Positions 3,237-63,755 of a stretch of 64,000 nt of DNA are shown here, piece by piece. A program made the translations under genes and the position numbers. A model generated the notes under the pieces. It was not told where the DNA came from, searched no databases, and saw only the letters and a list, made by a program, of their open reading frames with translations. Source of the DNA: an uncultured archaeon (GTDB taxonomy: Archaea; Aenigmatarchaeota; Aenigmatarchaeia; QMZP01); contig CAZAEI010000003.1 of NCBI GenBank assembly GCA_964484305.1, forward strand, positions 4,672-68,671. Direction: 5' to 3'. The number at the start of each line of letters is the position of its first letter. Position 1 is the stretch's first letter.

Positions 3237-3398
3237 TGGGGCCACCCGGATTTGAACCGGGGTCGGCGGCTCTTCATGAACCCGTCTCTTTCGGAAGCGA
3301 GCGGAACGCAGTGAAGCGAAGCTCCTTTTCCGTGAACGCTTTTCTGAAAAAGGGTTCTCCCAAAGCCGCAATGCTAGACCAAGCTACACCATGGCCCC
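3237..3398 (-). tRNA. tRNA-Pro(UGG) with 87-nt intron at 37/38
   Basis: Minus strand: GGGGCCA-TG-GTGT-AGCTTGGTCTA-GCAT-T-GCGGC-TTTGGG[intron 3272-3358]A-GCCGC-CGAC-CCCGG-TTCAAAT-CCGGG-TGGCCCC-A. BHB geometry is kept: 7 nt on each strand between the anticodon stem and the intron helix GAACCC/GGGTTC. The central helix itself is weak. Confidence 0.8.
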
Positions 3399-38065: not shown

Positions 38066-38232
38066 ACCTTCAAAAATTGTCCCGTCCCTTAAAACCAGTG
38101 CAGCTCCTTTAGTTTCTTTGATAAGAACCCACCAATAGTTAGATGTTTAAGTATTTAAAAATACAGCCTGGCCAATTAAAGCAGCCATCATCCATATTGT
38201 TAACAGAAGGATTTATGGCAGGGGTGGTTGAA

Positions 38233-39993
38233 ATGGAAAAGAAGATACGCTCTCCAATCGTGGTCATGCTCGGACATTGATTATCCTTGTGATAACCAGC
38301 CGAAAACGTTGACCACGGAAAGACTTCAATACTTGACAACATCAGGGAAACCGCTGTCACCAAGACAGAGCCAGGACTCATAACCCAGCATATATCGGCC
38401 TCCTACATCCCCAGGAATATCATAGTAGAAAGGTGCGGGAAGATGCTTGATAAGCTTGGCATAGAATTCACAATCCCGGGCATTCTTGCTATCGACTCCC
38501 CGGGCCACGAGGCCTTCACCACACTCAGGAAGAGGGGTGGGGCAATAGCAGACCTCGCGGTCCTTGTCATCGACATAAACGAGGGCTTCAAGCCCCAGAC
38601 CGAGGAGAGCCTGAACTATCTCAAGCAGTTCAAGACCCCCTTTGTGGTCGCCGCAACCAAGATAGACAGGATTGCGGGATGGTCCCTTTCTCCCGGGGCG
38701 TGCTTCTCCGAGGCCTATGAGAACCAGCCCGAGAGGTCCAGTGAGGAGCTGGACAACAAGCTCTACCGCCTGATAGGCCAGCTGGGGGAGAGGGGCTTCT
38801 CTGCAGAGAGGTTCGACAGGGTCCAGGACTTCACCAAGCAGATTGCGGTCGTCCCGCTCTCAAACGCATCCGGCGAGGGCATACCCGACCTGCTCGTTAT
38901 GCTGGGGGGCATTGCCCAGAGGTACCTCAAGGAGCGGCTCGAGCTGACGCCGGGATGGGGCAAGGGAACCGTCCTGGAGGTCAAGGAGTACCGGGGCCTC
39001 GGGACAACGGTTGATGTCATACTGTATGACGGGGAGATAAGGCGCGGGGATACCCTGGTAATAGGGGGGGAGAAGACTGCCGTCACCAAGGTGCGGGCCC
39101 TCCTGACGCCAAAGCCGCTCAGGGAGCTAAGGATAGAGAAGGACTTCAGGACCATACCATCTGTCCGGGCTGCTGCGGGAATCAAGATATCAGCCCCCGG
39201 CCTTGAGGGGGTCATTGCAGGCTCCCCCTTAAGGGCAGTGAGCAACGAGAGGGATATTGACCAGGCCACCAAGGAGGTCAGAAGCGAGATGTCCGAGGTC
39301 GAGCTCGAGACCGACCATGAGGGTGTTGTCCTCAAGGCCGATACCCTGGGAAGCCTGGAGGCCCTAATAAAGACCCTCAGGGATGCGGGCATCAAGGTCA
39401 GGAAGGCCCGCGTCGGGGCAGTGACCAAGAGCGACATAGCCGAGCTCAGGTCCCTGGGGGAGCCCATGATATTCGCCTTCGGGGTGAGGATTCCCCCTGA
39501 AATAGGGAAGCTTGCCGAGGACAATTCAGTAAAGATATTCTCCTCTGACGTGATTTACCGCCTTGTCGAGGAGCACGAGAAGTGGAATAAGGACAGGAAG
39601 CTCAGGGAGGAGGAGGCCCTCCTGGCCAGCGTGTCCAGGCCCGCGAGGGTGAGGGCCCTGCCCGGATACGTCTTCAGGCAGAGCAAGCCGGCAGTCTTCG
39701 GCGTCGAGGTGATGAAGGGCATAATCCGCCCGGGCGCCACCCTCTCCAATAAGGGAAGGGACATCGGCGAGATAAGGGAGATACAGTCCAGGGGCGAGAA
39801 CGTCAGGGAGGCCGAGGCAGGGGAGAGGGTTGCCCTGTCCATGGCCGGCGTTGTGGTGGGCAGGGATGTAGAGGAGGGGGATGAGCTCGATGTCAGGGTG
39901 ACCGATAAGGACAGGGAGGTCCTGAAGAAGCTCAAACCAAGGCTCAGGGGAGACGAGCTCGAACTCCTGGAGGAGATGGATAATGTTTCCTGA
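38233..39993 (+). CDS. infB: translation initiation factor aIF5B (IF2 homologue), interrupted by a 30-nt putative BHB intron (exons 38233-38275 and 38306-39993)
   Basis: Exon 1 encodes MEKKIRSPIVVMLGH. After the insert the frame reads VDHGKTSILDNIRETAV...ITQHISA...DSPGHEAF...ATKIDR. The G1 motif GHVDHGKT is split by tga-containing sequence. The joined length is 576 aa, normal for aIF5B. Confidence 0.8.
38276..38305 (+). other. putative bulge-helix-bulge pre-mRNA intron in infB (30 nt)
   Basis: Outer helix cgtggtca(38259-66)/tgaccacg(38310-17). Central 4-bp helix tcgg(38270-73)/ccga(38300-03). Bulge aca(38274-76) and A-rich bulge(38304-07). Inner helix ttgattatc/gataaccag with loop cttgt. Cutting 2 nt 3' of each central-helix strand gives GGA CAC GTT GAC CAC = GHVDH. 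Confidence 0.65.
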
Positions 39994-42965: not shown

Positions 42966-43814
42966 ATGGTTATGTCAACAGAAACAGGTTCAAAAGCAGT
43001 AATCTTTGAAAAGCGGAAGATTTATCCTACTGGAACGACTGTTGGCAGGGCCAGGCCCATGGAGTTACAGGGAGAATACGGACCAGAAATAACACAATTT
43101 AATGAAGTATACAGCATTCTTGCAACCCTTGAAGACACAGCAACGCTTGGTGATATGGCAAAACTGTTTGAACACTATCTGCAGTCAGAGCTTGGCGTGC
43201 TTGACTTGAAAAATGAACAGGACACCCTTCTCAAATACCTCTTTGCTGAAACAGGAAAGGGAAACGTCTGTGCCAATGCTGCTAATTACAGTTTCAATGA
43301 CAGTGGTCTAAAGAAAATCCACGAAAGCGACAGGCGCGTTTTATGGGTTGTGCGGCCTGAGTATCTTGATCATAAAAACATTAAGGGAGGAGAAGAATAC
43401 CCAGAATGCGTTCCCATAACAGGCTGGATTGCATTCCCAGAAGACACAGGAAAGGGGCTCTTTCGAAGAACCAAAGACGGTGAGGTGTTGGGAATACCTG
43501 AATTCACTGTTCCCACCAAGGAGGAAGCCAAAAGGACCTTCATTGACAGGGGATTTTCAGAAAAATTTGCAGAGAATGCCGTTTCTAAATGGTACAGTAG
43601 AGGTGAGGGTGATGGAGTATCCGCTGTGGTTCGCTATTCCGGCGGCAGGAACGGTCAGTTCGTTGCGAATGCCGATGAGCATCCGTCGGACAGGAGCTCG
43701 AGTTTCGGTCGGTTCCCTTCCAGTAGGTCGCCGAGCGGAGCGAGGCACGCCGGTAAGAATGAAATTGCCGACCAGTTGGTAGCTCTGGCTGCTCAGTTGA
43801 GATCAAAAGGATAA
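42966..43814 (+). CDS. DGR variable (target) protein with C-terminal C-type-lectin/FGE-like variable region
   Basis: 282 aa. The C-terminus ...SAVVRYSGGRNGQFVANADEHPSDRSSSFGRFPSS... is encoded by VR. No signal peptide or TM segment is evident. Confidence 0.85.
   Translation: MVMSTETGSKAVIFEKRKIYPTGTTVGRARPMELQGEYGPEITQFNEVYSILATLEDTATLGDMAKLFEHYLQSELGVLDLKNEQDTLLKYLFAETGKGNVCANAANYSFNDSGLKKIHESDRRVLWVVRPEYLDHKNIKGGEEYPECVPITGWIAFPEDTGKGLFRRTKDGEVLGIPEFTVPTKEEAKRTFIDRGFSEKFAENAVSKWYSRGEGDGVSAVVRYSGGRNGQFVANADEHPSDRSSSFGRFPSSRSPSGARHAGKNEIADQLVALAAQLRSKG
43620..43733 (+). repeat. DGR variable repeat (VR)
   Basis: Aligns to TR (offset 470, then 494). All 13 mismatches in about 107 aligned nt fall at TR adenines (43630, 43641, 43642, 43645, 43662, 43663, 43667, 43674, 43689, 43696, 43702, 43704, 43723). 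Homology decays after 43726 in an IMH-like way. Confidence 0.9.
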
Positions 43815-44089
43815 ATGTCACCACATCTAATTCTATTCATCTCTCTGGTAACAGGGAGATCACCAGAAAGCTGGGCATCAGTGTCGATATGTCCATTGGA
43901 CATGCCGAGTATATGCGTGAACTACATGCCTGGTTATAGTGCTATGAGGCGTTAGTTTCATGGCCATAAAATACAGCGGCGATACCGATAATATGAGGTA
44001 AAGCCGCAGTGTGCATCCGAAACAATACTGCTTATAAGAAGGTGAGCAGCCACACTACAAGATGCATTTAGTAACACAGGCTACAAGGG

Positions 44090-44227
44090 TCCGCTGTGGA
44101 TCGCTATTCCAACGACAGGAACGGTCAGTTCAATGCAAATGCCAATGAGCATCCGTCGAACAGGAAATCTCTTGCTTGTAGAGACCTGAACTCGAATATC
44201 GGTCGGTTCCCTTCCAATAGTCCGCTG
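44090..44227 (+). repeat. DGR template repeat (TR), containing a 24-nt TR-only insert
   Basis: Adenine-rich AAY codons in the VR frame (aac gac agg aac ... aat gca aat gcc aat). Lies immediately upstream of avd. Confidence 0.9.
44167..44190 (+). other. putative bulge-helix-bulge intron within the DGR template RNA (24 nt)
   Basis: Outer helix tcga(44156-59)/tcga(44192-95). Central helix cagg(44161-64)/cctg(44185-88). Bulges aaa(44165-67) and aac(44189-91). Inner helix tctct(44168-72)/agaga(44180-84) with a 7-nt loop. Excision makes TR co-linear with VR. Confidence 0.6.
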
Positions 44228-44260
44228 CTTTCTGGGTCATGTTTCCCTAGGTGTTCACAA

Positions 44261-44614
44261 ATGTCCTATACCCTTCTGTTCCAAAAAACATATGACCTTG
44301 TAAAGTGGATATACCCAACTGTCAACAAATTTCCTCGGAAACAGAGACTTACTCTCTCACAGAGAATTGAGGTAACCACAATCAGAATACTCGAATTGGT
44401 TATTGATCTCAGTGACCGAGATACTGCAGTTAACAGAAAGAAAATCCTCCATGAACTTCATAAACTCCAGATTCTCCTGCGTCTGTGCAAGGATCTTTCT
44501 TACCTGAGCTTCAAGCGATACGCATATGTGAGTTTCCTGATTACCGAAATAATTCAGATATTGGACAAGTGGGGGGGGGGGTCTCGTGGAGGTCTGCAGA
44601 AATTTGTTTCCTAA
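44261..44614 (+). CDS. avd: DGR accessory variability determinant (Avd; four-helix-bundle, 23S rRNA-IVS protein family)
   Basis: 117 aa from ATG 44261: MSYTLLFQKTYDLVKWIYPTVNKFPRKQRLTLSQRIE.... The longer track ORF (from 44096) merely reads through TR. Confidence 0.8.
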   Translation: MSYTLLFQKTYDLVKWIYPTVNKFPRKQRLTLSQRIEVTTIRILELVIDLSDRDTAVNRKKILHELHKLQILLRLCKDLSYLSFKRYAYVSFLITEIIQILDKWGGGSRGGLQKFVS

Positions 44615-45653
44615 GCTTTGCTCATTCAGGAATCTTGAGCTTGCATACAGAAAAGCAAGAAGAAACAAGCGATGCAAACCAGCAGTCCAGAAATTTGAAA
44701 TGCATCTGGAGCAGAACATTCTCCAGCTCAAACATGAGCTTGAAACAGGAGCATACACTCCCCGTCCACTCAGACAATTTGTTATCCGAGATACAAAGAC
44801 AAGGGTGATTTCCGCTTCCCGTTTCAGGGACAGGGTAGTTCATCACGCTCTGTGTAATACCATCCAGCCAATCCTTGAGAAATCATTCATTCATGATTCC
44901 TGCGCAAACCAGATAGGGAAAGGGGCGAGCAGAGCATTAGAACGGTTTGATACATTCAAGAGAAGGGTCTCGGAAAACGGCAGACTTGTGAACAAACCAA
45001 TCACCACTAGCATAGTGATTGGATACGTATTGAAAGCAGATATCAGGCATTATTTTGATACTGTTGATCACGAGGTGTTGCTTACCATCATCCAAAAGAA
45101 AGTCAAGGACAAGCGGGTAATGGGATTGATAAAGAAAATTCTGGACAATCACTACATTCCAACCCCTGGAAAAGGTATGCCTCTCGGGAATCTCACTAGC
45201 CAGTTCTTTGCAAATGTATATCTGAATGAACTTGATTATTTTGTGAAGCATATATTGAAAGCAAGACACTACATCAGATATGTTGATGATTTTGTTGTGC
45301 TGCACAAATCACGAGAGTGTTTGGAGCAACATAAAAGGCAGATTGAAGACTTTTTACAAACACTCAAACTTGAATTGCATCCAGAAAAGTCCAAGATCTA
45401 TTTGCTCTGCAAAGGAACGTCATTTCTTGGTTTTCGTGTGTTCTATCATCATAAACTTGTCAAGAAAAACAATCTGCGAAGAATGAGAAAGAGGGTTTCG
45501 GAATTTCGGTCAGTGTATGGTAAGAATGAAGAGTTTGATCAAGAAATATTGAGAAGTTTTACCGGTTGGTGCGCTTATGCTATGCAGGGAGATACGTACA
45601 AGTTTCGAAAAAGAATGATGGAAGAACTCACAGGAGGCGAACATGCCCTTTAA
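44586..45653 (+). CDS. DGR-type reverse transcriptase
   Basis: 355 aa (GTG start); PLGNLTSQFFANVYLNELD (the DGR-specific SQ motif) and YVDDFVV catalytic box. Confidence 0.9.
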   Translation: MEVCRNLFPKLCSFRNLELAYRKARRNKRCKPAVQKFEMHLEQNILQLKHELETGAYTPRPLRQFVIRDTKTRVISASRFRDRVVHHALCNTIQPILEKSFIHDSCANQIGKGASRALERFDTFKRRVSENGRLVNKPITTSIVIGYVLKADIRHYFDTVDHEVLLTIIQKKVKDKRVMGLIKKILDNHYIPTPGKGMPLGNLTSQFFANVYLNELDYFVKHILKARHYIRYVDDFVVLHKSRECLEQHKRQIEDFLQTLKLELHPEKSKIYLLCKGTSFLGFRVFYHHKLVKKNNLRRMRKRVSEFRSVYGKNEEFDQEILRSFTGWCAYAMQGDTYKFRKRMMEELTGGEHAL

Positions 45654-50220: not shown

Positions 50221-51531
50221 TCAGGATGTCACGAACCCGTCCCTGCCCGTCTCCATCTCCACTGGTATCTTTATGGGGTTCTCATGGCCTTCCTGGCCCC
50301 CGGCCCCCTCTGGCTTTTCTTCCCGGCCGGGCCCGGCCGCCCCGCCTTGGTCAGGAGCGGCCTGTATCTCTGGAAGCCCCGCGGCCCTCCTAAGTTCCCC
50401 GGCCCTGTCTGTCCGCTCCCAGGTGAAGTCAGGGTCATTCCGGCCGAAGTGGCCGTAGGCAGCTGTCTTTCTGAAGATGGGCTTCCTCAAATCCAGGTAC
50501 CTGATTATCTCTGCAGGCCTGAGGTCGAACTGCTGCTCCACAATCTCCCTGAGCTTCTCATCAGGGACCTTCCCGGTCCTGAAGGTATTCACCATCAGGG
50601 AGACCGGCTTCGCTACCCCGATGGCATAGGCTATCTGGATTTCGCACCTGTCCGCAAGCCCCGCTGCCACGATGTTCTTGGCTATGTGCCTGGCCATGTA
50701 GGAGGCTGACCTGTCCACCTTGCTTGGGTCCTTTCCTGAGAAGGCGCCGCCCCCGTGGGAGCCGTGGCCCCCGTAGGTATCGACTATGATTTTCCTTCCC
50801 GTGAGGCCGGAGTCTCCCGGCGGCCCGCCTATCACGAACCTTCCGGTGGGGTTGATGTGGAAGGTCGTCTTCTCGTCTGTCCAGTCCCCACACACCGGTC
50901 TTATTATCTCCTCCATTATCCCCTTTCTGATATCCTCATCTGCTATGTCCGGGGAATGCTGCGCGGCTATCACGACAGTCTCCACCCTCAGGGGGGTCCC
51001 GTTGTCATACTCGACAGTCACCTGGGACTTGCCGTCAGGCCTCAGCCACGGAAGGGTTCCACTCTTCCTGGCCTCTGTGAGCTTCATGGCAAGCTTGTGG
51101 GCGAGTGTGATGGGAAGCGGCATGTATTCAGGGGTTTCATTGCTGGCGTAGCCGAACATGAGGCCCTGGTCCCCTGCTCCCTGCTCCTTATGGAGGCCTT
51201 CCCCTTCTGATACCCCCTGGGAGATGTCAGGGCTCTGCTCGTGGAGGGAGACCAAGACCGCGCACTGGTCAGCATTAAAGCAGTACTCAGGCTTGTCGTA
51301 ACCGACATCCCTGACCGTGTCCCTTACTACTGATTGGACATCTATGTATCCCTTGGTTGTGACCTCCCCCGCAATGACTATCAGTCCTGTGGTTGTCAGG
51401 GTCTCCACAGCCACCCTTGAATAGGGATCTTGTTTTATCAGTTCGTCCAGAACAGCATCCGATATCTGGTCGGCGATTTTATCGGGATGTCCAGGGGTTA
51501 CTGATTCTGAAGTAAACAAATACGTTGCCAT
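50221..51531 (-). CDS. metK: S-adenosylmethionine synthetase, bacterial/eukaryal MetK type, with low-complexity C-terminal extension
   Basis: [63 protein letters not shown]. The ATG at 51531 lies 7 nt after AGGAGG. Confidence 0.95.
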
Positions 51532-51533
51532 AT

Positions 51534-52499
51534 TCAACCTCCTCCCTTAGCTTCTAAAAAGATTTTATATTGTTGGTATTTTCTCTGTAAAAACAGATGA
51601 GCGTCTTTGTATATCCAGTCCGCTAGTCCCTTACCTCTACTACATGAATACTGAACTATGAATGTATTATTGCTTATTTTTCGGATTCTAGAAACAACAC
51701 CAAGATTTTCTCTAATTTTTTCTACCATCTTCTTCAAGAACTCTGGTGAACCAGAAGAAACCGTTATTTCAAAATAAGGGCTTCTTTTTCTTTCAACATA
51801 TCTTACATTTCCATCACCATCAATAATACCCCTAATAAAATGTCGTAGATAGTCTGTTGGTATATCCGGGAATTTTACTATAAGAGATTTTCGGGGAATA
51901 ACTCCTAGCTCCATAAGTCTCAAACATATTTTCTTATTATTTACTATCAATCTGTTCGATTTTGTCTTTTCAGCATAAAGTAAAGGCTTTGTGCTTAGAA
52001 GTAGTTTTCTTATTCTTACCAGATGAATTCTATCTTTTTCTGATGCTGTTATTGTAAGAGATTGGTAACCTTTTGAAGGATTCCAAGCCACATTCCCATC
52101 AGCAAATATATAACCCAGAATATATGCTGAATCTTCGTTCCATTCATTAAAAAAAGATTCGTTAACGGTGTGTTTTTTGTGGCGAAACCCCAGCTCTGCA
52201 CTCCATTTGTTTATCGTTGTCTTCCCCACACCCAATCTTCTTGCTATCTCCCTCTGTGAGACTTTTCCTAAATTCGATTCAATAAAGGAGATCATTGACT
52301 GTTTTTTCTTTGGATCGATTTTTGTGCCCATAGATAGATTTATGGTTTTATCGCATAAATATGTCGGGTGACCTTCTATATATGGCTCTGAATCATATAA
52401 GCACAATTCCATGCTAATCATCTTAATCTTTCCAACCCAGCGAGACTGGATTAAGAAAATCTTATAAATCCACCCATTTATATAAGTTTCAATATACAA
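51534..52499 (-). CDS. free-standing double-motif LAGLIDADG homing endonuclease with N-terminal HTH
   Basis: 321 aa; [10 protein letters not shown] and [11 protein letters not shown] motifs; [22 protein letters not shown]. Strongly AT-rich. Its last codons (GGA GGA GGT TGA) supply the metK Shine-Dalgarno. Confidence 0.85.
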
Positions 52500-56582: not shown

Positions 56583-57158
56583 ATGAAAGGCTTTGAGACA
56601 ATTGGGCAAGGAATGAAGGTCATTCTTGCTGTATTTGTGGGTGTTGTTACTTTCTTAATAGTCACCCAAACATGGGCTTCCCTTGGTCCTTCAGGATCTG
56701 ATGGGCCTGCCACAGGATTTGATTTCCTGATAAACCATGCAGCCCTCAGGTACGGCGTAGAGGCAACCCTCATAAAAGCCGTGATAAAGCAGGAGAGCAA
56801 CTTCGACCCTGCAGAAAAATCCGATGCAGGTGCCAAGGGCCTCATGCAACTCATGCCCAGTACAGCAGAGGGCCTCGGGAAACCCACCACACCAGAGGGA
56901 AAATATTGCAACCTCGACATAACCGACCCCTTCGACCCGGAACAGAACATAAACGGGGGGACCTGCTACCTGTCATATTTATTGGACAGATACGATAATA
57001 ATAAAGAGCTGGCCCTGGCCGCATACAACGCAGGACCAACAAGGGTCGATGCCTGCAAATGCGTTCCAAACATACCGGAAACCCAGCAGTATGTCAGACT
57101 CGTGACAAATTACTACGATGAATACAAGGGTCAGGGCGGCTTGACGGCGGTTGGATGA
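56583..57158 (+). CDS. membrane-anchored lytic transglycosylase (SLT/GH23 domain)
   Basis: 191 aa; IKQESNFDP (catalytic Glu), GLMQLMP, AAYNAGP. N-terminus MKGFETIGQGMKVILAVFVGVVTFLIV. Confidence 0.9.
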   Translation: MKGFETIGQGMKVILAVFVGVVTFLIVTQTWASLGPSGSDGPATGFDFLINHAALRYGVEATLIKAVIKQESNFDPAEKSDAGAKGLMQLMPSTAEGLGKPTTPEGKYCNLDITDPFDPEQNINGGTCYLSYLLDRYDNNKELALAAYNAGPTRVDACKCVPNIPETQQYVRLVTNYYDEYKGQGGLTAVG

Positions 57159-57340
57159 CCTTGGACAAAAATGTAACTGCAATGATGGGCCAGATAACAA
57201 TAGAGTTCAGCATATGGTTTTTTGTGAAGATTGTGCTTTTCCTTCTGCTGTTCCTGATACTTTTCCTTTTCGTTCCATCCACCCTGCATGCAGCTGCTGA
57301 GTGGATTGGAGGACTCTTTGGGGGCGGGGGCTCCCCGTAG
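57155..57340 (+). CDS. small hydrophobic protein, prepilin-like N-terminus
   Basis: 61 aa; MMG|QITIEFSIWFFVKIVLFLLLFLILFLFV; ATGA start/stop overlap with the SLT gene. Confidence 0.55.
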   Translation: MTLDKNVTAMMGQITIEFSIWFFVKIVLFLLLFLILFLFVPSTLHAAAEWIGGLFGGGGSP

Positions 57341-57354
57341 CGAGGCGCTTAGTT

Positions 57355-60195
57355 ATGAAAAAACCACAAAGAAGAAAGGGAATGAAGGGCTTTGAAATAG
57401 GCATCAACATGATGGTCCTCACAGTCTTTGCTTTCATCGGCATAGGCCTTGCTTTTGTGGCATTCATTGCCACCACCGAATACTTCCCCGAACTCCAGGA
57501 TTGGCTGCTCAACTTATTCAACGAAACCCTCACCCCGGATATGAAAGATAACTATGAGATTACCAAGGTCTCTATGCAGGCCCTGGTGTGCGCCATAAAC
57601 ACCGTAGCGACAGGGGAGGAATACACAGCAGACGGCTGCTCTAAATTCTATACCAGCACTCCCCCAAAAACCAGTGATGAGCCCGGATCGGTTTTTCCTA
57701 ATATCCCTGATTCTCCTGTTGTACCAGAATATGGGGCTGATACCCCGCCACAATATGATCCAGGTGTAGGCAACATGGTCTCCAAGGACTACAGTGACTT
57801 CATGACAGGCCTCGCAACCAGAGATACACAAAAAAAACAAAAAACCGTGTTTACATGCAATCAAGGATACACTGAATGTACATTATACAACTTCAGGCTT
57901 CCCCAGGAATTTGGTGGCGTAAAAGGCACAGCCGAAGAGTGGGTTAAAGGTTGTGGAGATCCGGACTTCCTTATGTACTGGCAGGAATTCCCAGAGGGTG
58001 AAGACCAATCATGGAACAGCTTCCGAACCTGGGCAGAAAACGTATATGATATAATCTTTGCGTGGTGGGGCGCGGGCAAAGTGTTTAGAATCGGTAAGGG
58101 CACTGCAAAGATCACGTTCCAATACACTGTAAAGAAGGGGATATATTCTGCTAAGGATGTTTATGCTAGAATAGTCTATAGGGATCCGCTCGAATATTTC
58201 GTTAAACATACACTAAATCAGAAATCGAGTGCAACACTAAAACAAGAACTGGGAAAAATCGGAGAAGAAATATTATCTAAAAAGCTAATGGGTAAAGAGA
58301 TAGCCACTCTCGCAAAGCGCGGTATTGCAATAACTCCATGGACGGTAGCGGCTGCTCTTATTGACAGCATCAATGCCAAATACAAGCAGTATACCAACTC
58401 AATTGTGTTGAAGATTCCCTTTAATGACCCAGAGAACAAATCACTCCAGCTTAACGGCGAACCCGTGTTTCTAAAGAACAAGAAAACGTCATTCTATATG
58501 GTCTCTCCCTGTGATGCAAACCTCAAGGTAGAGAGGGTTGTTGCAGAGTGCAACGCCAAAGAAACTAATAGTGGCAAAATCACTAGTTTTGCATACGACC
58601 TGACATCCGGTTCAATGAGATGCTATGAGCCGGATTTTGAAGATTACAAGGAGATTCCGGCTTCTGAAATTGAGTGCAGGAAAGACAAAAATATAGCAGA
58701 ATACTTCCCTGGAGAGGATCCCACGATTCCAAGTATAATATCAGGTATTGAGGGAAAGGATGAGCTAAGGATATCAAATCTTGCCGAATCAAAGGACGTA
58801 CTAAACATAAGGGACCCAATCCACGGTGTTACCTTCATTCTCGAGAAGAAAAGAGTTACAATTGAAGAGCCAACCGAAATAGGGTTTATTGAAAATGAAA
58901 TTGATGCTTGGGAAATAACACGTATAACCTTTGAGAACACTGACGGATCAGAAAAGACATTCAATGTAGTTGACGGAAAAACAACAAACCCCGAATTCAT
59001 CGACCTCGGTTACAGCGATCCACCGGAATTGGGAAAATACATATTCAACTACATTGACCCAGAAAGTGGTCTAATCAAAATAGAAATAAAACCAGACAAT
59101 TTCAATATAGAGTTCGATAGCTCAAAGAGCGACATTTCAGGCATCACAAGGGAGCGTGGCAAAAATCTTCAATGTACCTGTGAATACACAGGCCGATTTA
59201 CCGATCACAAAGCAGTAGGGTTAACAGCAGACCAGATTATCTCTGAATGTGATGATTATGTCAGATCACATTATCTTGGCAGTTATAAAGGAGCCAGCGA
59301 CCTCATGTTTTACGACTGCAATGAGGTGGGAACACCCGAAACCCCTGATGGAAATGTTAATGTAGAGAGATGTGAGTGTGCGTTTAAGATGGGTTCTTCC
59401 ACAGAAAAATATTATGTCTATGGAAAGGATGAAGCAGACGCTACTGAAAAATGTCAGGACGATTTCGCATCCTTCCAGAATACAAAAAACAAGCCAAGCG
59501 AGCTAACGATATCAAACTGCCAGCCAATCCAAGGAGATTTCGAAGATGTTGAAAACGATTGTCCTCAATGCGGGGAATACAAGAAGATTTTAGAGAATAT
59601 CAAATTGATTAAGTTTGAGGAAAGGGTTGAAAAGATTGAAACTGATGTTGGAGATAAAAATCTTGAATATAATTCACTTATCATTGTTCGTGATGACTAC
59701 AGTGTTGTATTCACTGACAAGGACAGCAAGGTTAGAGAAACAATAGAAGAAATGGAAAAAAGAGAAGCAGACGGGATTGCCGAGACAATAGGAATAGATA
59801 AAAAGGCATGGTATGAGATTTTTTGGTATTCGTTTCCTGACCAGGTACTTCTGGAGGACATGGATTTTGATGGCAAGATAGACATTGTCAGCACAAAGCT
59901 GGACTGCAAGATACCTGGCGTGACCGTGGAACTGGTGGAAAGGAACAGCCTTGGAGATGAACCCAACTTCTGCTTTGCTCCAGGAAGCAAGATAAGGACT
60001 GCCATAAGATGGGTCCCTGAGGCAGGCATTCTGCTTGGAGGTGTTGCAGGCCTTCTAGGCGGGCCGTTAGCCGGAGTGAGTGTCCCAGGCGGTATGGTGG
60101 TTGGACAGAGGGTTGGCGCAGCAATCTTCACGGCATATGTGGTGGTTGAGAAATTCACAGGAAGCGCGGACATATGGCCCGGAAAGGATACCTGA
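57355..60195 (+). CDS. 946-aa surface protein with prepilin-like N-terminus, duplicated Cys motif and Gly-zipper hydrophobic C-terminus
   Basis: MKKPQRRKGMKG|FEIGINMMVLTVFAFIGIGLAFVAF. C-terminal AGILLGGVAGLLGGPLAGVSVPGGMVVGQRVGAAIF. No catalytic motif recognised. ATG at 57355 follows the stop of the previous ORF. Confidence 0.8.
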   Translation: MKKPQRRKGMKGFEIGINMMVLTVFAFIGIGLAFVAFIATTEYFPELQDWLLNLFNETLTPDMKDNYEITKVSMQALVCAINTVATGEEYTADGCSKFYTSTPPKTSDEPGSVFPNIPDSPVVPEYGADTPPQYDPGVGNMVSKDYSDFMTGLATRDTQKKQKTVFTCNQGYTECTLYNFRLPQEFGGVKGTAEEWVKGCGDPDFLMYWQEFPEGEDQSWNSFRTWAENVYDIIFAWWGAGKVFRIGKGTAKITFQYTVKKGIYSAKDVYARIVYRDPLEYFVKHTLNQKSSATLKQELGKIGEEILSKKLMGKEIATLAKRGIAITPWTVAAALIDSINAKYKQYTNSIVLKIPFNDPENKSLQLNGEPVFLKNKKTSFYMVSPCDANLKVERVVAECNAKETNSGKITSFAYDLTSGSMRCYEPDFEDYKEIPASEIECRKDKNIAEYFPGEDPTIPSIISGIEGKDELRISNLAESKDVLNIRDPIHGVTFILEKKRVTIEEPTEIGFIENEIDAWEITRITFENTDGSEKTFNVVDGKTTNPEFIDLGYSDPPELGKYIFNYIDPESGLIKIEIKPDNFNIEFDSSKSDISGITRERGKNLQCTCEYTGRFTDHKAVGLTADQIISECDDYVRSHYLGSYKGASDLMFYDCNEVGTPETPDGNVNVERCECAFKMGSSTEKYYVYGKDEADATEKCQDDFASFQNTKNKPSELTISNCQPIQGDFEDVENDCPQCGEYKKILENIKLIKFEERVEKIETDVGDKNLEYNSLIIVRDDYSVVFTDKDSKVRETIEEMEKREADGIAETIGIDKKAWYEIFWYSFPDQVLLEDMDFDGKIDIVSTKLDCKIPGVTVELVERNSLGDEPNFCFAPGSKIRTAIRWVPEAGILLGGVAGLLGGPLAGVSVPGGMVVGQRVGAAIFTAYVVVEKFTGSADIWPGKDT

Positions 60196-60208
60196 ATCGC
60201 ATCCTATT

Positions 60209-60820
60209 CTAAGTACCAGGTCCTAAGGAGTTCACAACATATTTAGCTGGCTTACTTAGAGTCCTCTGATTCTTCGGAACCTCAAATATTGAGAATACTA
60301 TGGAAAGACCATTCTCATAAAAAACTTTATAACCCTGTCTCCAACGACCTCCGGTTTCAATGGGTTCAATCTCTGTTACTCTCACCCCCTCAAACCCTCT
60401 AAGGTAATCCTTGTAACCTTCTACATTCCCTTCCATGTAGACATCTCTCTCACCTGACTCAAGGGCTGCGGCAAAGGACTCCATGAAAGCATCATGACTG
60501 GACATATCAAGGGCATGTTTCTTGGGAGTAGTTGCCCCCTCGATTTCTTTTGTTGGGTATGCTGTCTTAGGAAGCTCTAGTGATGCTCTGGGCATTTCTT
60601 TTTCAGACAACTGCAGGGTTACGGGCGCCGGCTCCCTTACTACATTTACTTGGGTCTCGTCCACATCACCGCCCATGTATTTCGAGCCAAGCCATCCCAA
60701 AAGAGCAACGCCTGCGGCCACAGGAACCCCTATCCCTACTATCCGTTTTATCCGCCTTTGCCCCTTCCAGTTGATTGGGGTTTTGTAAAGCTCATCTGCA
60801 GTAGTTGTGCTGTTTGCCAT
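60209..60820 (-). CDS. single-pass membrane protein, hypothetical
   Basis: 203 aa; basic stretch KGQRRIKR followed by TM IVGIGVPVAAGVALLGWLG. It is the only minus-strand gene in the cluster. Confidence 0.6.
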   Translation of the reverse strand: MANSTTTADELYKTPINWKGQRRIKRIVGIGVPVAAGVALLGWLGSKYMGGDVDETQVNVVREPAPVTLQLSEKEMPRASLELPKTAYPTKEIEGATTPKKHALDMSSHDAFMESFAAALESGERDVYMEGNVEGYKDYLRGFEGVRVTEIEPIETGGRWRQGYKVFYENGLSIVFSIFEVPKNQRTLSKPAKYVVNSLGPGT

Positions 60821-60884
60821 ACAAACACCTCTTGTGAGTAGTTAATTCGACCATTTATAAAGGTTTTGGTGTGCAATTGTCGAT

Positions 60885-60901
60885 ATATAACAGTGTTATA
60901 T
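60885..60901. promoter_or_regulatory. second copy of the 17-bp palindrome ATATAACA-G-TGTTATAT (putative operator in the divergent intergenic region)
   Basis: Lies between the minus-strand gene start (60820) and the small-protein gene start (60981). Confidence 0.5.
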
Positions 60902-60980
60902 CAAGCCCCGTGGCGGCCATCCCTCAATTTCAACCGACCGAGGACAAACGATTAAATAAACCCCCAGACAATATATAACC

Positions 60981-61127
60981 ATGGAAATCACAATAAGGAC
61001 GATGCTAATTGTGGTTGTCGCTCTGATTGTTATCCTCGTCGCTCTGACGGTTGTGCTCAACCTCAGCGGGGGATCAAACAACGCAATAACCGGCCTCTTT
61101 GACTGGATAAAGAGCATGATGGGTTAG
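60981..61127 (+). CDS. 48-aa hydrophobic protein (Flp/pilin-like?)
   Basis: MEITIRTMLIVVVALIVILVALTVVLNLSGGSNNAITGLFDWIKSMMG. Below the ORF-track cut-off; first gene after the palindrome. Confidence 0.45.
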   Translation: MEITIRTMLIVVVALIVILVALTVVLNLSGGSNNAITGLFDWIKSMMG

Positions 61128-61201
61128 CACAGGTTAGCTTCCCGGCAAACAATAATTCTATACGCGGCTTGAATATAAACATCCTCCTTGTATAATAAAG
61201 T

Positions 61202-61876
61202 ATGAACATGAAATGCAAGGGAGCGACAAACACAGCACTTATAATCATAGGGAGCATAGTCTTTCTCCTCTTTGTGCTCGGCATCTTTATCTACAGTATC
61301 TGGCCCTGGATTTATTATGGACCGTTCAGCCCCTGCTACGCATCTGCTTACTCCAGCGTCAGGACCCTGGCAGGCTTCGACCTTCTCAGGGACCCCCAGA
61401 CCATTGCACTGGGAAAATGCGTCAGCGCGCTCTATCTTGTAAATGGAAATGAGCTGGACGAAATCTCAGAGAAGATAGGCAAAAACTTCAAAAAGGAGCT
61501 GGACTGCGATGAAGGGGGAAAGAGCTATGTCATAGCAGTCCCCATCATCGAGGGCGGGGAGTGGACATGGAACATCTTCAAGTGGCCAAAAGAGATGCTC
61601 AATGGGTTAAAGCAGCGATATGTCCAAAAGGTCTGGCCGGGGGCCATCTGCAGGATTCTCAGCGAAGAAAGGAAATTCGCCTACACCGCATATTTCGAGG
61701 GCGACAATACATACTGTGTTGACATAACCAAGGACATGCATGCCTCCACCTACTCTATAGACTGTTGCAAAGGCACCTGCAAAGAATGTGGGGCCAACCC
61801 CAACAATCCAGGAATGTTCTACGACGAGGAGGACACCAAGGGCATATGGGATAGGTGCGAGGGAGAGATTTCATGA
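61202..61876 (+). CDS. prepilin-like N-terminus protein, Cys-rich
   Basis: 224 aa; MNMKCKG|ATNTALIIIGSIVFLLFVLGIFIY; C-terminal CCKGTCKECG. Confidence 0.65.
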   Translation: MNMKCKGATNTALIIIGSIVFLLFVLGIFIYSIWPWIYYGPFSPCYASAYSSVRTLAGFDLLRDPQTIALGKCVSALYLVNGNELDEISEKIGKNFKKELDCDEGGKSYVIAVPIIEGGEWTWNIFKWPKEMLNGLKQRYVQKVWPGAICRILSEERKFAYTAYFEGDNTYCVDITKDMHASTYSIDCCKGTCKECGANPNNPGMFYDEEDTKGIWDRCEGEIS

Positions 61877-61889
61877 GGAGAGGGATATC

Positions 61890-62282
61890 ATGAGGGGCGA
61901 TGTGCCCCTGACGGTCCAGGTAATCTTTGCAGGACTCCTTGTAATGGTGGTTCTGTACTTCGTGTGGCAGGATGTGATGGTGCCTTCTGTAAGGAGCTAT
62001 GGAAACGAGCACGCCCACTTGACTGCCCAGGCAATTGCAACTGCTGTCAATTCACTCTCCAGGGAGGAGCAGGGAACCTTCTACAGGGAACTGGGCCTTG
62101 CCTGGGACATTGGTGTATTTCACAAGGATGATGATGCCTACGTATCCGTATCCCACGGAGAATTCAAGAGCGGTGACATAATCATCCTTTATGATATTGA
62201 CGATTTCACAGCAAGCGATATCAGCAGCATTTATGTTGTCAAGGAGCTGGGCAAGAAGGCAAGGCTAACGGAGAAGATATAA
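61890..62282 (+). CDS. prepilin-like N-terminus protein
   Basis: 130 aa; MRG|DVPLTVQVIFAGLLVMVVLYFVW. Confidence 0.6.
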   Translation: MRGDVPLTVQVIFAGLLVMVVLYFVWQDVMVPSVRSYGNEHAHLTAQAIATAVNSLSREEQGTFYRELGLAWDIGVFHKDDDAYVSVSHGEFKSGDIIILYDIDDFTASDISSIYVVKELGKKARLTEKI

Positions 62283-62746
62283 TGGGAGAGTACCAGCTGA
62301 TATACACGGCCATAGCGGCTATTGTATTCGTGACAGCCATAATAGGCGGGAGATTCTTCATAGTAAGCAACTTTGTCCAGGCGGACATCGAGTCCCAGAC
62401 AACCACGAGGGAACTCAATGCCATGTCCCTTTCATATAATATTCTGGACTGCCTCAAACAGGATGGAGACTCTGTCCAGGCGGGATTCCTTGATGGCAAC
62501 ACAGGCAAGAATATCTGCGAGCTCTGCGGGATATGCAGCCTGATTTCAGAAGCCATGGTTACAGACCTGGAAGCATCAGAAAGGGAATGGGAATTCAAAT
62601 ATTCTGCTGTATCCAAGCTCCCCCAGACTCTCAGTGACAAGCTGCTCGTGTGGAGAGATGACAGAAACAAGAAATCATACTCAGTCTATCTTGACATAGA
62701 CTACGGAGAAGAATCTCATATGGGGATGCTTGATGTAAATGTCTAG
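62282..62746 (+). CDS. prepilin-like N-terminus protein
   Basis: 154 aa; MG|EYQLIYTAIAAIVFVTAIIGG; TAATG overlap with the upstream gene. Confidence 0.6.
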   Translation: MGEYQLIYTAIAAIVFVTAIIGGRFFIVSNFVQADIESQTTTRELNAMSLSYNILDCLKQDGDSVQAGFLDGNTGKNICELCGICSLISEAMVTDLEASEREWEFKYSAVSKLPQTLSDKLLVWRDDRNKKSYSVYLDIDYGEESHMGMLDVNV

Positions 62747-63755
62747 GAAGATGAAGGGTGGGGAACTAACGGTATTCTTTATCATTGCAGGAGCAGCAGC
62801 CCTTGTCGGGCTTTTTATAATACTGAACATGATTCATACGAATTCAGTTCTCCAGGTAAAGAAGACAATAACACTCTCCACTGACCTGAGCGACCAGGGG
62901 ACGGCTGCCCTGGGCCTTCTGAACAGGGAACATCAGGGAAAGAAGTACATAACTGTTTTGGGAGAATCAGTTGCAGAAAACTATGCTTCACAACCCCAGG
63001 ATGCCTACAATTCCCTCAAGGCCACACTCAAGGAGCTAGAGAAGGGTTTCAGCTTTAAATTCCAGGAGAACCCCGACCTCAATACAGGGGAGCCCCAGAA
63101 ATCCGCGACATATGGGGAATGCGGTCACACAGAATCAGACCTTGGCATAAAGCTGACCTGGCCTTCTGAAACCGAGAGGGTCACATCTGGCTTCGGCTAC
63201 AGGAACACCCCGAGGCCCTGCTACTGCCACAGCGGCCTGGACATAGCCAGCGGGCAAGGAAAAGGCGATGAGGCCAGGGCTGCATACGACGGAACGGTCA
63301 TCTTCCTTTACGACAACTGCAAGGAATCCCCCAACTGCTTCCTAGAACCGGACAATAGTAACTGCGGGTGCGGCAGCGGTTATGGAAACAGAATCACATT
63401 GAAACACATTTCCACGAACGGCATGGAGTTCTACACCCACTACTGCCACCTCAGTGAAATCAATGTAGAGAACAGGCAGGAAGTCAGGGCCGGCCAGGTC
63501 ATTGCAAAGACAGGCAACACAGGCCGCTCAGAGGCAATCCACCTACACTTTGAGCTGTCCACAGCAGAAAAACCAACAAAGGATACCAATGCAATCAATC
63601 CCTGCCCGTATTTTGATAACCCTCCTGACAAATGCCAGCAGGTCGAGACAGAGAGTTGTGATGTGACAGCAGGGGCCAACACATTCAATGTTGAAATACC
63701 CCTTCCCGGTGCTGTAACAGGTAAGCTGAAGGGAAAGGTTGTGATGGAAAAATGA
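62739..63755 (+). CDS. M23 (LytM/lysostaphin-type) metallopeptidase with prepilin-like N-terminus
   Basis: 338 aa; MSRKMKG|GELTVFFIIAGAAALVGLFIIL. M23 motifs HSGLDIA (HxxxD) and AIHLHFE (HxH), with a Cys-rich insert between them. Confidence 0.9.
   Translation: MSRKMKGGELTVFFIIAGAAALVGLFIILNMIHTNSVLQVKKTITLSTDLSDQGTAALGLLNREHQGKKYITVLGESVAENYASQPQDAYNSLKATLKELEKGFSFKFQENPDLNTGEPQKSATYGECGHTESDLGIKLTWPSETERVTSGFGYRNTPRPCYCHSGLDIASGQGKGDEARAAYDGTVIFLYDNCKESPNCFLEPDNSNCGCGSGYGNRITLKHISTNGMEFYTHYCHLSEINVENRQEVRAGQVIAKTGNTGRSEAIHLHFELSTAEKPTKDTNAINPCPYFDNPPDKCQQVETESCDVTAGANTFNVEIPLPGAVTGKLKGKVVMEK

What the first reader, a model, noticed from the sequence alone, without database searches (positions are those of the whole stretch)
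38233..38320. aIF5B (infB) P-loop is split by a 30-nt stop-containing insert with BHB geometry: candidate archaeal pre-mRNA intron
The reading frame MEKKIRSPIVVMLGH (from 38233) runs straight into tga. Thirty nt later the same protein continues as VDHGKTSILDN..., so the universally conserved G1 motif GHVDHGKT is interrupted. The insert is flanked by:
- an 8-bp exon-exon helix cgtggtca/tgaccacg
- a 4-bp central helix tcgg(38270-73)/ccga(38300-03)
- a 3-nt bulge aca and an A-rich bulge, each 3' of a central-helix strand
- a 9-bp inner hairpin (ttgattatc-cttgt-gataaccag)

The BHB cutting rule removes 38276-38305 and yields GGA CAC GTT GAC CAC = G-H-V-D-H, exactly in frame. The full-length product would be 576 aa. 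Without splicing, only an N-terminally truncated protein lacking the P-loop (Met at 38443) could be made from an essential gene. BHB introns in protein-coding genes are established essentially only for cbf5 in Crenarchaeota, so one in infB would be new.
Basis: partly seen in the sequence, partly recalled or inferred. Interest (0 to 1): 0.85.

Follow-up and report, generated by a model that had tools for sequence, protein, structure and literature searches.

The report
Mini-intron splitting an archaeal translation-factor gene
The essential translation initiation factor gene aIF5B of this DPANN (Aenigmatarchaeota) archaeon is interrupted, inside the codons for its GTP-binding loop, by a 30-base insert shaped like the introns archaea cut out of tRNAs; related inserts sit at the same spot in relatives and in the paralogous aIF2-gamma gene, which would add a rare new case of messenger-RNA splicing in archaea.

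Summary
The aIF5B frame (ATG 38233) runs MEKKIRSPIVVMLGH into TGA. Thirty bases later, in the same frame, it resumes as VDHGKT.

The insert is not an artefact. It is identical in six independent assemblies, and the gene is under purifying selection (dN/dS about 0.15).

I found 10 distinct inserts at this site in Aenigmatarchaeota-like contigs: 7 in aIF5B besides the window's, and 3 in the paralogue aIF2-gamma. They are 27, 28, 30 or 34 nt long. Two more, of 29 and 34 nt, lie 9 nt downstream in aIF5B.

All fold into the same slightly relaxed bulge-helix-bulge shape. Pairing holds in 90% of cells and 9 pairs show compensatory changes, one of them in the 4-bp exon:intron helix. The standard cutting rule restores GHVDHGK and a full-length ORF in all 12, including the five whose length is not a multiple of three.

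The best explanation is a BHB pre-mRNA intron removed by the tRNA-splicing endonuclease and RtcB. This is inferred; there is no RNA evidence.

The papers I found name only cbf5 and one Haloferax 5' UTR as known mRNA cases.

The intron is scattered across the aIF5B tree and also occurs in a paralogue, which hints at mobility.

The parts
38233..38275 (+). Exon 1 of aIF5B (infB): ATG ... GGA C. It encodes MEKKIRSPIVVMLG plus the first base of the His codon.
   Evidence: The exon-1 peptide is conserved in the intron-bearing orthologues L087, L088, L089, L092, L093, L097 and L100.
38276..38305 (+). 30-nt BHB-type mini-intron. Removing 38277-38306 gives the same product. It carries in-frame stops TGA, TGA and TAA.
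   Evidence: It is identical in six assemblies. Orthologous introns of 27-34 nt exist. Its removal restores GHVDHGK.
38306..39993 (+). Exon 2 of aIF5B: A CGT TGA CCA ... through the stop codon. Together with exon 1 it gives a 576-aa protein.
   Evidence: Pfam GTP_EFTU, GTP_EFTU_D2, IF-2 and GTP_EFTU_D4 hit the 516-aa called product.
38258..38268 (+). 5' strand of the outer (exon-exon) helix. It pairs with 38307-38318, and U38309 is bulged.
   Evidence: Two pairs show compensatory changes in relatives. Five of 8 intron-bearing aIF5B alleles pair at 8 of 8 positions, against a mean of 4.3 and a maximum of 6 in 72 intron-less alleles.
38270..38273 (+). Central 4-bp helix, exon strand UCGG. It pairs with CCGA at 38300-38303, which lies in the intron.
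   Evidence: All 40 of 40 cells are paired across 10 sequences. L100 has UUGG/CCAA, a compensatory double change.
38274..38276 (+). 5' bulge ACA. The predicted 5' cut is after C38275.
   Evidence: A three-nucleotide bulge (ACA, or GCA in L088) is present in all site-A members.
38277..38299 (+). Inner hairpin of the intron: 9-position stem with one A.C mismatch, loop CUUGU.
   Evidence: Six of its 9 pairs show compensatory changes among relatives.
38300..38303 (+). Central helix, intron strand CCGA.
38304..38306 (+). 3' bulge AAA, with unpaired C38269 opposite. The predicted 3' cut is after A38305.
   Evidence: AAA is invariant in all site-A members.
38307..38318 (+). 3' strand of the outer (exon-exon) helix.

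Best explanation
The 30 nt at 38276-38305 are an archaeal bulge-helix-bulge (BHB) intron inside the aIF5B coding sequence.

**Proposed steps.**
1. In the primary transcript, exon 1 and exon 2 pair with each other to form the outer helix.
2. The exon bases UCGG pair with the intron bases CCGA to form the 4-bp central helix.
3. The rest of the intron forms a hairpin.
4. This leaves ACA and AAA as the two staggered 3-nt bulges.
5. The tRNA-splicing endonuclease EndA cuts after the second base of each bulge (after C38275 and after A38305).
6. RtcB joins the exons to give ...CUC GGA CAC GUU GAC CAC..., and probably circularises the 30-nt intron.
7. Only the spliced mRNA encodes full-length aIF5B (576 aa) with an intact GHVDHGKT P-loop.

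**Shown versus inferred.** Shown here:
- the interruption;
- the conserved, covarying structure;
- exact restoration of frame and motif by the BHB rule in every family member;
- purifying selection on the gene.

Inferred: the identity of the enzymes, and that cleavage and ligation actually occur.

**Family context.** The element belongs to a family of 27-34-nt introns found at the same nucleotide position in aIF5B and in the paralogue aIF2-gamma of Aenigmatarchaeota-like archaea.
For: - **Real sequence.** The insert is identical in six independent assemblies.
- **Functional gene.** The infB-NUDIX-EpsH arrangement matches the orthologues. dN/dS is 0.15-0.17 between intron-bearing orthologues.
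- **Presence and absence.** 76 of 80 genome loci have an uninterrupted GHVDHGKT, 3 have variant or no-insert P-loops, and L019 has an insert. The closest intron-less orthologue is 86% identical.
- **Same-site introns, aIF5B.** Found in L087 (87% identical), L088 (81%) and L089 (65%, 27 nt), and in L092/L095, L093, L097 and L100 (28 nt).
- **Same-site introns, aIF2-gamma.** Found in L094/L096 (30 nt), L091/L098 and L101-L104 (34 nt).
- **Structure is conserved, sequence is not.** Minimum-free-energy folds give the same architecture in 10 of the 11 site-A members folded. 90.4% of cells are paired, against 18-47% in slid controls. Nine pairs have compensatory changes, a value reached by 0 of 500 shuffles. 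The central helix is paired in 40 of 40 cells and includes one double change, C-G to U-A, made by a synonymous CTC-to-CTT change plus an intron G-to-A change.
- **Cutting rule works.** It restores GHVDHGK and a full-length ORF in 12 of 12 distinct inserts. Five have lengths of 28, 29 or 34 nt, so they cannot be read through.
- **Stops are not conserved in position.** At least one is always present.
- **Exon-exon helix.** It is far stronger in intron-bearing alleles than in 72 intron-less alleles.
- **Same genome has heavily interrupted tRNA genes.** tRNA-Pro has an 87-nt intron, and a tRNA-Gly-like gene has two insertions at non-canonical positions.
- **Size matches the known case.** cbf5 mRNA introns are 16-44 bp (PMC2738675).
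Against: - There is no RNA-level evidence: no spliced transcript, circular intron or junction peptide. No full-length 100%-identical protein appears in the protein database.
- The motif is not a strict hBHBh'. C38269 lies opposite the 3' bulge, and in the site-B family the central helix has 3 Watson-Crick pairs plus an A.G.
- The EndA type of this lineage was not determined, and no EndA or RtcB gene lies in the window.
- Seven of the eight metagenome loci (L091-L098) were retrieved with a pattern that fixed TCGGRCATTG...CCGRAAACGT. Invariance of those bases within that subset is therefore by construction. The independent evidence comes from L087, L088, L089 and L100-L104, which were found through truncated gene calls.
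- Folding z-scores of single sequences are moderate (-2.0 to -4.1).
Confidence: 0.8

Rival explanations
1. The insert is excised from the RNA, but by machinery other than EndA/RtcB: an unknown structure-specific nuclease plus ligase, or a small self-cleaving and self-ligating RNA. The resemblance to a BHB would then be partial coincidence.
For: The motif deviates from the strict BHB: a 1x3 loop at site A and an A.G within the central helix at site B. No enzyme was identified in the window.
Against: - The two unpaired triplets are staggered across exactly 4 bp in every site-A member.
- The standard cut position gives the right product in 12 of 12 inserts.
- EndA and RtcB are universal in archaea (established knowledge).
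- DPANN EndAs carry a loop associated with disrupted tRNA genes (PMC5829648).
- No Rfam ribozyme or other family matches the region.
- 27-34 nt is too small for known self-splicing introns.
Confidence: 0.09
2. Programmed translational bypassing, as in phage T4 gene 60. The ribosome would take off at the codon before the stop and land about 30 nt downstream, so no RNA processing would be needed.
For: A stop codon directly follows CAT in the window, and a hairpin starts at the take-off site. Both are reminiscent of gene 60.
Against: - There is no matching landing codon. Take-off would be at CAU or GGA, but the bases before GUU are AAC, and landing there would give G-N-V.
- The codon after CAU is UGG, not a stop, in L087, L088 and L093.
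- Compensatory changes maintain the exon:intron 4-bp helix and the exon-exon helix, which bypassing does not require.
- The site-B introns would need different take-off and landing rules.
Confidence: 0.03
3. A disabled gene or a sequencing or assembly artefact. infB would be a pseudogene here, or the 30 nt would be spurious.
For: Gene callers report only a 516-aa product lacking the P-loop (P0001).
Against: - The insert is identical in six assemblies from six samples.
- dN/dS is about 0.15 and there is no other disruption over 576 codons.
- Exon 1 is conserved.
- The same kind of insert occurs in lineages down to 65% protein identity and in aIF2-gamma on contigs of 108-305 kb.
- The insert's structure covaries.
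Confidence: 0.02
4. A small DNA-level mobile element (a MITE-like hairpin) that is tolerated because aIF5B is translated from Met 38443, or made as two pieces, without any removal of the insert.
For: The distribution is patchy on the aIF5B tree and the element occurs in a paralogue. A hairpin is present.
Against: - A protein starting at 38443 lacks the G1 motif, which is universally required in translational GTPases (established knowledge).
- Exon 1 stays under coding constraint.
- There are no terminal inverted repeats or target-site duplication.
- The exon bases co-vary with the insert.
Confidence: 0.03

Closest known systems
cbf5 (pseudouridine synthase) pre-mRNA intron of Crenarchaeota (Watanabe 2002; Yoshinari 2006; Yokobori 2009, PMC2738675)
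   Same: - A short intron (16-44 bp there, 27-34 nt here) inside a protein-coding gene.
- A BHB-type structure at the exon-intron borders.
- Too short to encode a protein.
- Presence or absence varies among related lineages.
- Presumed removal by EndA.
   Different: - The genes differ (aIF5B and aIF2-gamma) and so does the lineage (DPANN/Aenigmatarchaeota).
- The intron splits the P-loop codons.
- The same intron type occupies the homologous position in two paralogues.
- A second site lies 9 nt away.
- cbf5 splicing is shown experimentally; splicing here is not.
BHB introns of archaeal pre-tRNAs and the BHB processing stems of pre-rRNAs
   Same: - A 4-bp helix flanked by two 3-nt bulges.
- The cut falls after the second bulge base.
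- Flanking helices are present, and the exon pairs with the intron.
- The same window holds intron-bearing tRNA genes.
   Different: - The substrate is an mRNA, with no tRNA body.
- The outer helix is made of two coding segments.
- One extra unpaired base lies opposite the 3' bulge.
BHB intron in the 5' UTR of HVO_1309 mRNA, Haloferax volcanii (PMC7714728)
   Same: An mRNA substrate of the archaeal splicing endonuclease.
   Different: That intron lies in the untranslated leader and does not interrupt a reading frame. It is from a euryarchaeon and was shown by CRISPRi and in-vitro cleavage.
HAC1/XBP1 unconventional mRNA splicing (IRE1 plus RtcB or Trl1) in eukaryotes
   Same: A protein endonuclease cuts an mRNA at two structured sites, a tRNA ligase joins the exons, and the reading frame changes after splicing.
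   Different: The nuclease is different (IRE1), as is the recognition motif (two stem-loops with 7-nt loops). It operates in eukaryotes and is regulatory.
Inteins and homing-endonuclease-associated elements in P-loops of archaeal NTPases; archaeal IF-2 is among the top intein hosts (PMC4760082)
   Same: They target the most conserved coding sequence of an essential NTPase, show a patchy phylogenetic distribution, and are removed so that the host protein stays intact.
   Different: Inteins are removed at the protein level and are hundreds of codons long. The element here is 27-34 nt, non-coding, and removed at the RNA level. That the IF-2 intein sits in the P-loop itself is my recollection and was not verified here.
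Translational bypass in phage T4 gene 60
   Same: A short non-coding gap with a stop codon and a hairpin lies inside an essential ORF.
   Different: Matching take-off and landing codons are absent here, and the stop is not conserved.

Membership tests
Archaeal BHB intron (substrate of EndA/RtcB) | Two 3-nt bulges on opposite strands, separated by a 4-bp helix | tested here: met
   UCGG 38270-73 pairs with CCGA 38300-03. The bulges are ACA 38274-76 and AAA 38304-06. The same arrangement appears in 10 of the 11 site-A members folded. Caveat: one unpaired C (38269) faces the 3' bulge, so the motif is relaxed rather than strict.
Archaeal BHB intron (substrate of EndA/RtcB) | Helices flanking both bulges (h and h'), maintained in evolution | tested here: met
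   The outer helix has 10 pairs and the inner hairpin 9. Overall 90.4% of cells are paired and 9 pairs have compensatory changes, a value reached by 0 of 500 shuffles. Slid controls give 18-47% paired.
Archaeal BHB intron (substrate of EndA/RtcB) | Cutting after the second base of each bulge yields the functional mature RNA | tested here: met
   The rule restores GHVDHGK and a full-length ORF in 12 of 12 distinct inserts of 27-34 nt, including five whose length is not a multiple of 3.
Archaeal BHB intron (substrate of EndA/RtcB) | Cleavage by the splicing endonuclease, giving 2',3'-cyclic phosphate and 5'-OH ends | not testable with these tools
   Needs an in-vitro EndA assay or RNA-end mapping.
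Archaeal BHB intron (substrate of EndA/RtcB) | Exon ligation by RtcB and a spliced transcript or circular intron in vivo | not testable with these tools
   No transcriptome data were available. No full-length 100%-identical protein is in the protein collection.
Archaeal BHB intron (substrate of EndA/RtcB) | The host encodes an EndA able to handle relaxed or non-canonical substrates | tested here: inconclusive
   No EndA or RtcB was found among the window's ORFs. Indirect support: the window holds tRNA genes with a relaxed BHB and with insertions at non-canonical positions. DPANN alpha4 EndAs with the L3 loop are linked to disrupted tRNAs (PMC5829648).
cbf5 intron family of Crenarchaeota | Located at the conserved site in the cbf5 gene of Desulfurococcales or Sulfolobales | tested here: not met
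   The host genes are aIF5B and aIF2-gamma. The relatives are named Candidatus Aenigmatarchaeota. It works like the cbf5 intron but is not a member of that family.
Programmed translational bypass (T4 gene 60 type) | Matching take-off and landing codons, with a stop codon directly after take-off | tested here: not met
   No matching codon precedes GUU. The next codon is UGG instead of UGA in L087, L088 and L093.
Self-splicing group I or group II intron | A catalytic core of hundreds of nucleotides, recognisable by Rfam models | tested here: not met
   The insert is 30 nt. There are no Rfam matches at 38150-38420 even at E up to 10, apart from two noise hits.
Intein | An in-frame insertion that encodes a protein-splicing domain | tested here: not met
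   The insert is 27-34 nt, carries stop codons, and some lengths are not a multiple of 3.

The most novel reading that the evidence does not exclude
These are not relics of one ancient insertion. They form a family of mobile BHB mini-introns that repeatedly home to the P-loop-coding sequence GGNCA^CGUNGAYCAYGG of translational GTPases. They carry their own 4-nt guide (CCGR), which pairs with the exon.

**Observations this would explain:**
- the same intron in the paralogues aIF5B and aIF2-gamma;
- its occurrence in at least four separate aIF5B clades whose sisters lack it;
- a second insertion site 9 nt downstream.

Possible routes of spread are reverse splicing followed by reverse transcription, gene conversion between paralogues, or a free-standing homing endonuclease whose target the intron disrupts.

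It would be the first site-specific, recurrently gained endonuclease-spliced intron in archaeal protein-coding genes. It would offer a simple model for how protein-spliced introns colonise coding sequence.
Probability: 0.4. Interest if true: 0.9.

Novelty: new member of a known kind. Interest (0 to 1): 0.8.

Why it matters
**Rarity.** For more than twenty years the only accepted endonuclease-spliced intron inside an archaeal protein-coding sequence has been the one in crenarchaeal cbf5. One 5' UTR case in Haloferax was added in 2020 (PMC7714728).

**What this adds.**
- Two further genes, both essential translation initiation GTPases.
- A different superphylum (DPANN).
- An intron that cuts through the codons of the most conserved motif of the protein.

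**Consequences.**
- Expression of aIF5B and aIF2-gamma in these organisms would depend on the tRNA-splicing machinery.
- Public gene calls for these proteins are truncated (516 instead of 576 aa; 382 instead of about 400 aa) and need correcting.
- The recurrence at one nucleotide position in paralogues makes the question of how BHB introns are gained directly testable.
- The covariance model and the junction sequence give concrete handles for RNA-seq, RT-PCR and in-vitro EndA assays.

Tried and rejected
- **Other copies in the window.** Covariance model R1 found only 38256-38324; the next best hit scored 12 bits.
- **Generic BHB scans.** Two scans with an ORF-bridging test gave candidate counts of 58, against 23-39 in shuffled sequence, and no convincing second mRNA intron. 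The strict scan even missed the infB intron because of its bulged U, so its sensitivity is limited.
- **Plain ARAGORN and Rfam at gathering threshold.** These found no tRNA. Only intron-aware or permissive settings did.
- **The 450-aa ORF fused upstream of aIF2-gamma exon 1 in L091/L098/L101-L104.**
  - It carries a 'GLFEAEGS' motif that looked LAGLIDADG-like.
  - Pfam and PDB sequence searches gave nothing.
  - It is unrelated to the window's genuine LAGLIDADG_3 protein.
  - I dropped the homing-endonuclease reading of that ORF.
- **Site-B relatives.** A search for close relatives of the L019 intron found none within 76% identity. The second site-B case (L099) came from a truncated gene call instead.
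- **Read-through or recoding.** Rejected because of three different stops, including TAA, and frame-shifting lengths.
- **Bypassing, pseudogene, artefact, MITE.** Considered and rejected as described under the rival explanations.
- **Literature.** Six searches found no report of introns in aIF5B or aIF2-gamma. Subscription-only papers are not covered.
Full report
**1. The observation**

The window reads ATG (38233) GAA AAG AAG ATA CGC TCT CCA ATC GTG GTC ATG CTC GGA CAT TGA. Translated from 38233, the frame gives MEKKIRSPIVVMLGH*LSL**PAENVDHGKTSILDN..., and then runs open to the stop at 39993.

The universal G1 motif GHVDHGKT is therefore split between H and V by 30 nt that carry three in-frame stops. 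The only ORF a gene caller can report is 38443-39993, 516 aa.

The unconstrained RNA fold of 38250-38325 reproduces them:
- an outer helix, 38258-68 with 38307-18, with U38309 bulged;
- C38269 unpaired;
- UCGG 38270-73 paired with CCGA 38300-03;
- ACA 38274-76 and AAA 38304-06 unpaired;
- a hairpin at 38277-99.

The fold energy is -21 kcal/mol, with z = -2.5. This is a bulge-helix-bulge shape with one extra unpaired base opposite the 3' bulge.

**2. Not an artefact and not a dead gene**

The truncated product (P0001) is encoded on nine contigs. The six I read come from five JGI samples and one Logan run, and all carry the identical insert.

The gene sits in the same carB-carA | infB-NUDIX-EpsH arrangement as its orthologues. 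Between intron-bearing orthologues dN/dS is 0.15-0.17, with no other disruption.

The organism is an Aenigmatarchaeota-like DPANN archaeon. The nearest species representatives are 65% identical and are named that way.

**3. Presence, absence and a family**

Of 80 orthologous loci from species-representative genomes, 76 have an uninterrupted GHVDHGKT. Three have a variant P-loop without an insert. One, L019, has a different insert.

Truncated gene calls in the protein collection led to orthologues with an insert at exactly the window's position:
- L087 (87% identical, 30 nt);
- L088 (81%, 30 nt);
- L089 (65%, 27 nt);
- L100 (28 nt).

The closest intron-less orthologue is 86% identical.

A pattern scan of JGI metagenomes added three more distinct aIF5B cases (L092/L095, L093, L097). 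Unexpectedly, it also found the same element at the homologous GH|VDHGK position of a different gene. Pfam GTP_EFTU plus eIF2_C identify that gene as aIF2-gamma. Its introns are 30 nt in L094/L096 and 34 nt in L091/L098.

Truncated aIF2-gamma calls then gave four more contigs of 17-181 kb from four samples (L101-L104), carrying a diverged 34-nt version. Named relatives of these aIF2-gamma proteins are again Aenigmatarchaeota.

A second insertion site lies 9 nt downstream (GHVDHG|KT). It is occupied in L019 (34 nt) and L099 (29 nt) by introns with different hairpins.

**4. Structure is conserved, sequence is not**

Minimum-free-energy folds of 10 of the 11 site-A members tested give the same architecture.

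On a MAFFT alignment of nine sequences, 89.9% of cells form pairs, against 20-45% when partners are slid. Eight pairs have changes on both sides, a value reached by 0 of 500 shuffles.

On the model-guided alignment of ten sequences, the figures are 90.4% and nine pairs.

Helix by helix:
- **Inner hairpin.** It is almost completely replaced in sequence between members. For example, UUGAUUAUC...GAUAACCAG becomes UUGAUGCCA...UGGCGUCGA, yet it still pairs.
- **Central exon:intron helix.** It is paired in 40 of 40 cells.
  - In L100 it is UUGG/CCAA instead of UCGG/CCGA. That double change combines a synonymous Leu codon change in the exon with a G-to-A change in the intron.
  - This case was found through a protein, not through the pattern.
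- **Exon-exon helix.** It also covaries: A-U becomes U-A or G-C, and G-C becomes A-U. It pairs at 8 of 8 positions in five of eight intron-bearing aIF5B alleles, against a mean of 4.3 and a maximum of 6 in 72 intron-less alleles.

Caveat: seven of the metagenome loci were retrieved with a pattern that fixes part of the central helix and the bulges. Invariance there is partly by construction.

**5. The cutting rule works every time**

The rule cuts after the second base of each bulge. It restores GHVDHGK and a full-length ORF in all 12 distinct inserts.

Five of them are 28, 29 or 34 nt long. They shift the frame and cannot be tolerated by read-through.

Stop codons inside the inserts are not conserved in position. 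The codon after CAU is UGG in three members. Exon 1 peptides remain conserved.

**6. Mechanism**

The most economical explanation is that the pre-mRNA folds into this BHB, EndA cuts at the two bulges, and RtcB ligates. The result is GGA CAC GUU. The His codon is rebuilt from C in exon 1 and AC in exon 2.

The enzymes and the reaction are inferred, not shown.

Context from the same window fits an organism with a busy and tolerant splicing endonuclease:
- A tRNA-Pro(UGG) gene has an 87-nt intron whose BHB is relaxed.
- A tRNA-Gly(UCC)-like gene aligns end to end with the Rfam tRNA model. It carries a 48-nt insertion near the D-arm and 36 extra nt in the T-loop.

Kaneta et al. (PMC5829648) report that DPANN alpha4 EndAs carry an extra loop (L3) associated with increased tRNA gene disruption.

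**7. Rivals**

- **Translational bypass.** It fails for lack of matching take-off and landing codons and of a conserved stop. It also does not explain covariation of the exon:intron helix.
- **Pseudogene or artefact.** Excluded by replication across assemblies, purifying selection and conservation across lineages.
- **A tolerated DNA element with translation from Met 38443.** This would give a GTPase without its P-loop, and it does not explain the conserved exon 1.
- **An unknown RNA-excision machinery.** This cannot be excluded, but nothing calls for it.

**8. Distribution and possible mobility**

On a neighbour-joining tree of aIF5B, the site-A intron occurs in at least four separate places:
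- the clade of the window, L087 and L088, which is sister to an intron-less clade;
- L089, which stands alone;
- the pair L092 and L093;
- L097.

Each has intron-less neighbours. Together with the paralogous aIF2-gamma site and the second aIF5B site, this points either to many losses or to repeated site-specific gain. I could not discriminate between them.

No homing endonuclease is consistently nearby:
- The window has a free-standing LAGLIDADG_3 gene 12 kb away.
- The L101-type aIF2-gamma loci have an RVT_1 gene upstream and a LAGLIDADG_3 gene downstream.
- The other intron-bearing loci have neither.

**9. Comparison with what is known**

The closest known system is the cbf5 pre-mRNA intron of Crenarchaeota: 16-44 bp, a BHB, with gain and loss (PMC2738675).

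PMC7714728 states that cbf5 was the only BHB intron reported in an mRNA until its own 5' UTR example in Haloferax. A 2025 structural paper on EndA still cites only the cbf5 work for mRNA introns.

Six full-text searches found nothing on aIF5B or aIF2-gamma introns.

The element here works like the cbf5 intron. It is not a member of that family, because both the genes and the phylum differ. I file it as a new member of the known kind 'BHB intron in an archaeal pre-mRNA'.

**10. Verdict**

- Confidence that it is an EndA-type BHB intron: 0.8.
- Interest: 0.8.

Noticed in passing
window 1903-2054 (-): A tRNA-Gly(UCC)-like gene missed by ARAGORN and by Rfam at gathering score. The Rfam tRNA model aligns end to end (24.8 bits), with a 48-nt insertion in the D-arm/26-27 region and 36 extra nt in the T-loop. 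That amounts to two introns at non-canonical positions.
   Followed up: partly
window 3237-3398 (-): tRNA-Pro(UGG) with an 87-nt intron at 37/38, found only with ARAGORN's intron option. By hand parsing, its BHB is relaxed: only 2 of 4 central pairs form.
   Followed up: partly
window 42966-45653 (+): A complete diversity-generating retroelement.
- The target ORF is 42966-43814, with its variable repeat at 43620-43731.
- The template repeat is at 44090-44225, with adenine-specific mismatches.
- The RT-16 RNA lies at 43901-44089.
- bAvd is at 44096-44614 and the reverse transcriptase at 44586-45653.
   Followed up: yes
window 51534-52499 (-) and 50221-51537 (-): A free-standing two-motif LAGLIDADG_3 protein with an N-terminal HTH directly abuts a bacterial-type S-adenosylmethionine synthetase gene (metK). 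It is not similar to the ORF upstream of aIF2-gamma in L091.
   Followed up: partly
L019 1453-1486 and L099 (about 2470-2498): A second intron site in aIF5B lies 9 nt downstream of the window's site (GHVDHG|KT). The introns are 34 and 29 nt. Both have a central helix AUGG/CCAG with an A.G pair, bulges CAG or CAU and AAA or AGA, and a covarying outer helix. Both restore the frame when cut by the BHB rule.
   Followed up: partly
L101 1072-2481 (also L104, L098 5550-6959, L091): A conserved 469-aa ORF of unknown function runs in frame into exon 1 of aIF2-gamma, and its stop codon lies inside the intron. Splicing would therefore fuse the two reading frames unless aIF2-gamma starts at its own GGAGGT-preceded ATG. 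An RVT_1 gene lies upstream and a LAGLIDADG_3 gene downstream.
   Followed up: partly
protein collection: P0001, P0009, P0018, P0081, P0085, P0121, P0132, P0140, P0147, P0246, P0250, P0251: Public gene calls for aIF5B and aIF2-gamma from these lineages are N-terminally truncated (516-559 aa instead of about 575; 381-382 aa instead of about 400) because the intron is not recognised.
   Followed up: yes
window 56583-63755 (+): An SLT lytic transglycosylase (56583-57158), a 964-aa ORF with no Pfam match (57301-60195) and an M23 peptidase (62739-63755) lie together. These are murein-targeting enzymes in an archaeon, possibly for interaction with a host.
   Followed up: no
L088 2327-2692: A 121-aa fragment with a weak HTH_OrfB_IS605 match lies about 150 nt upstream of the intron-bearing infB in this orthologous locus. 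It is probably incidental.
   Followed up: no
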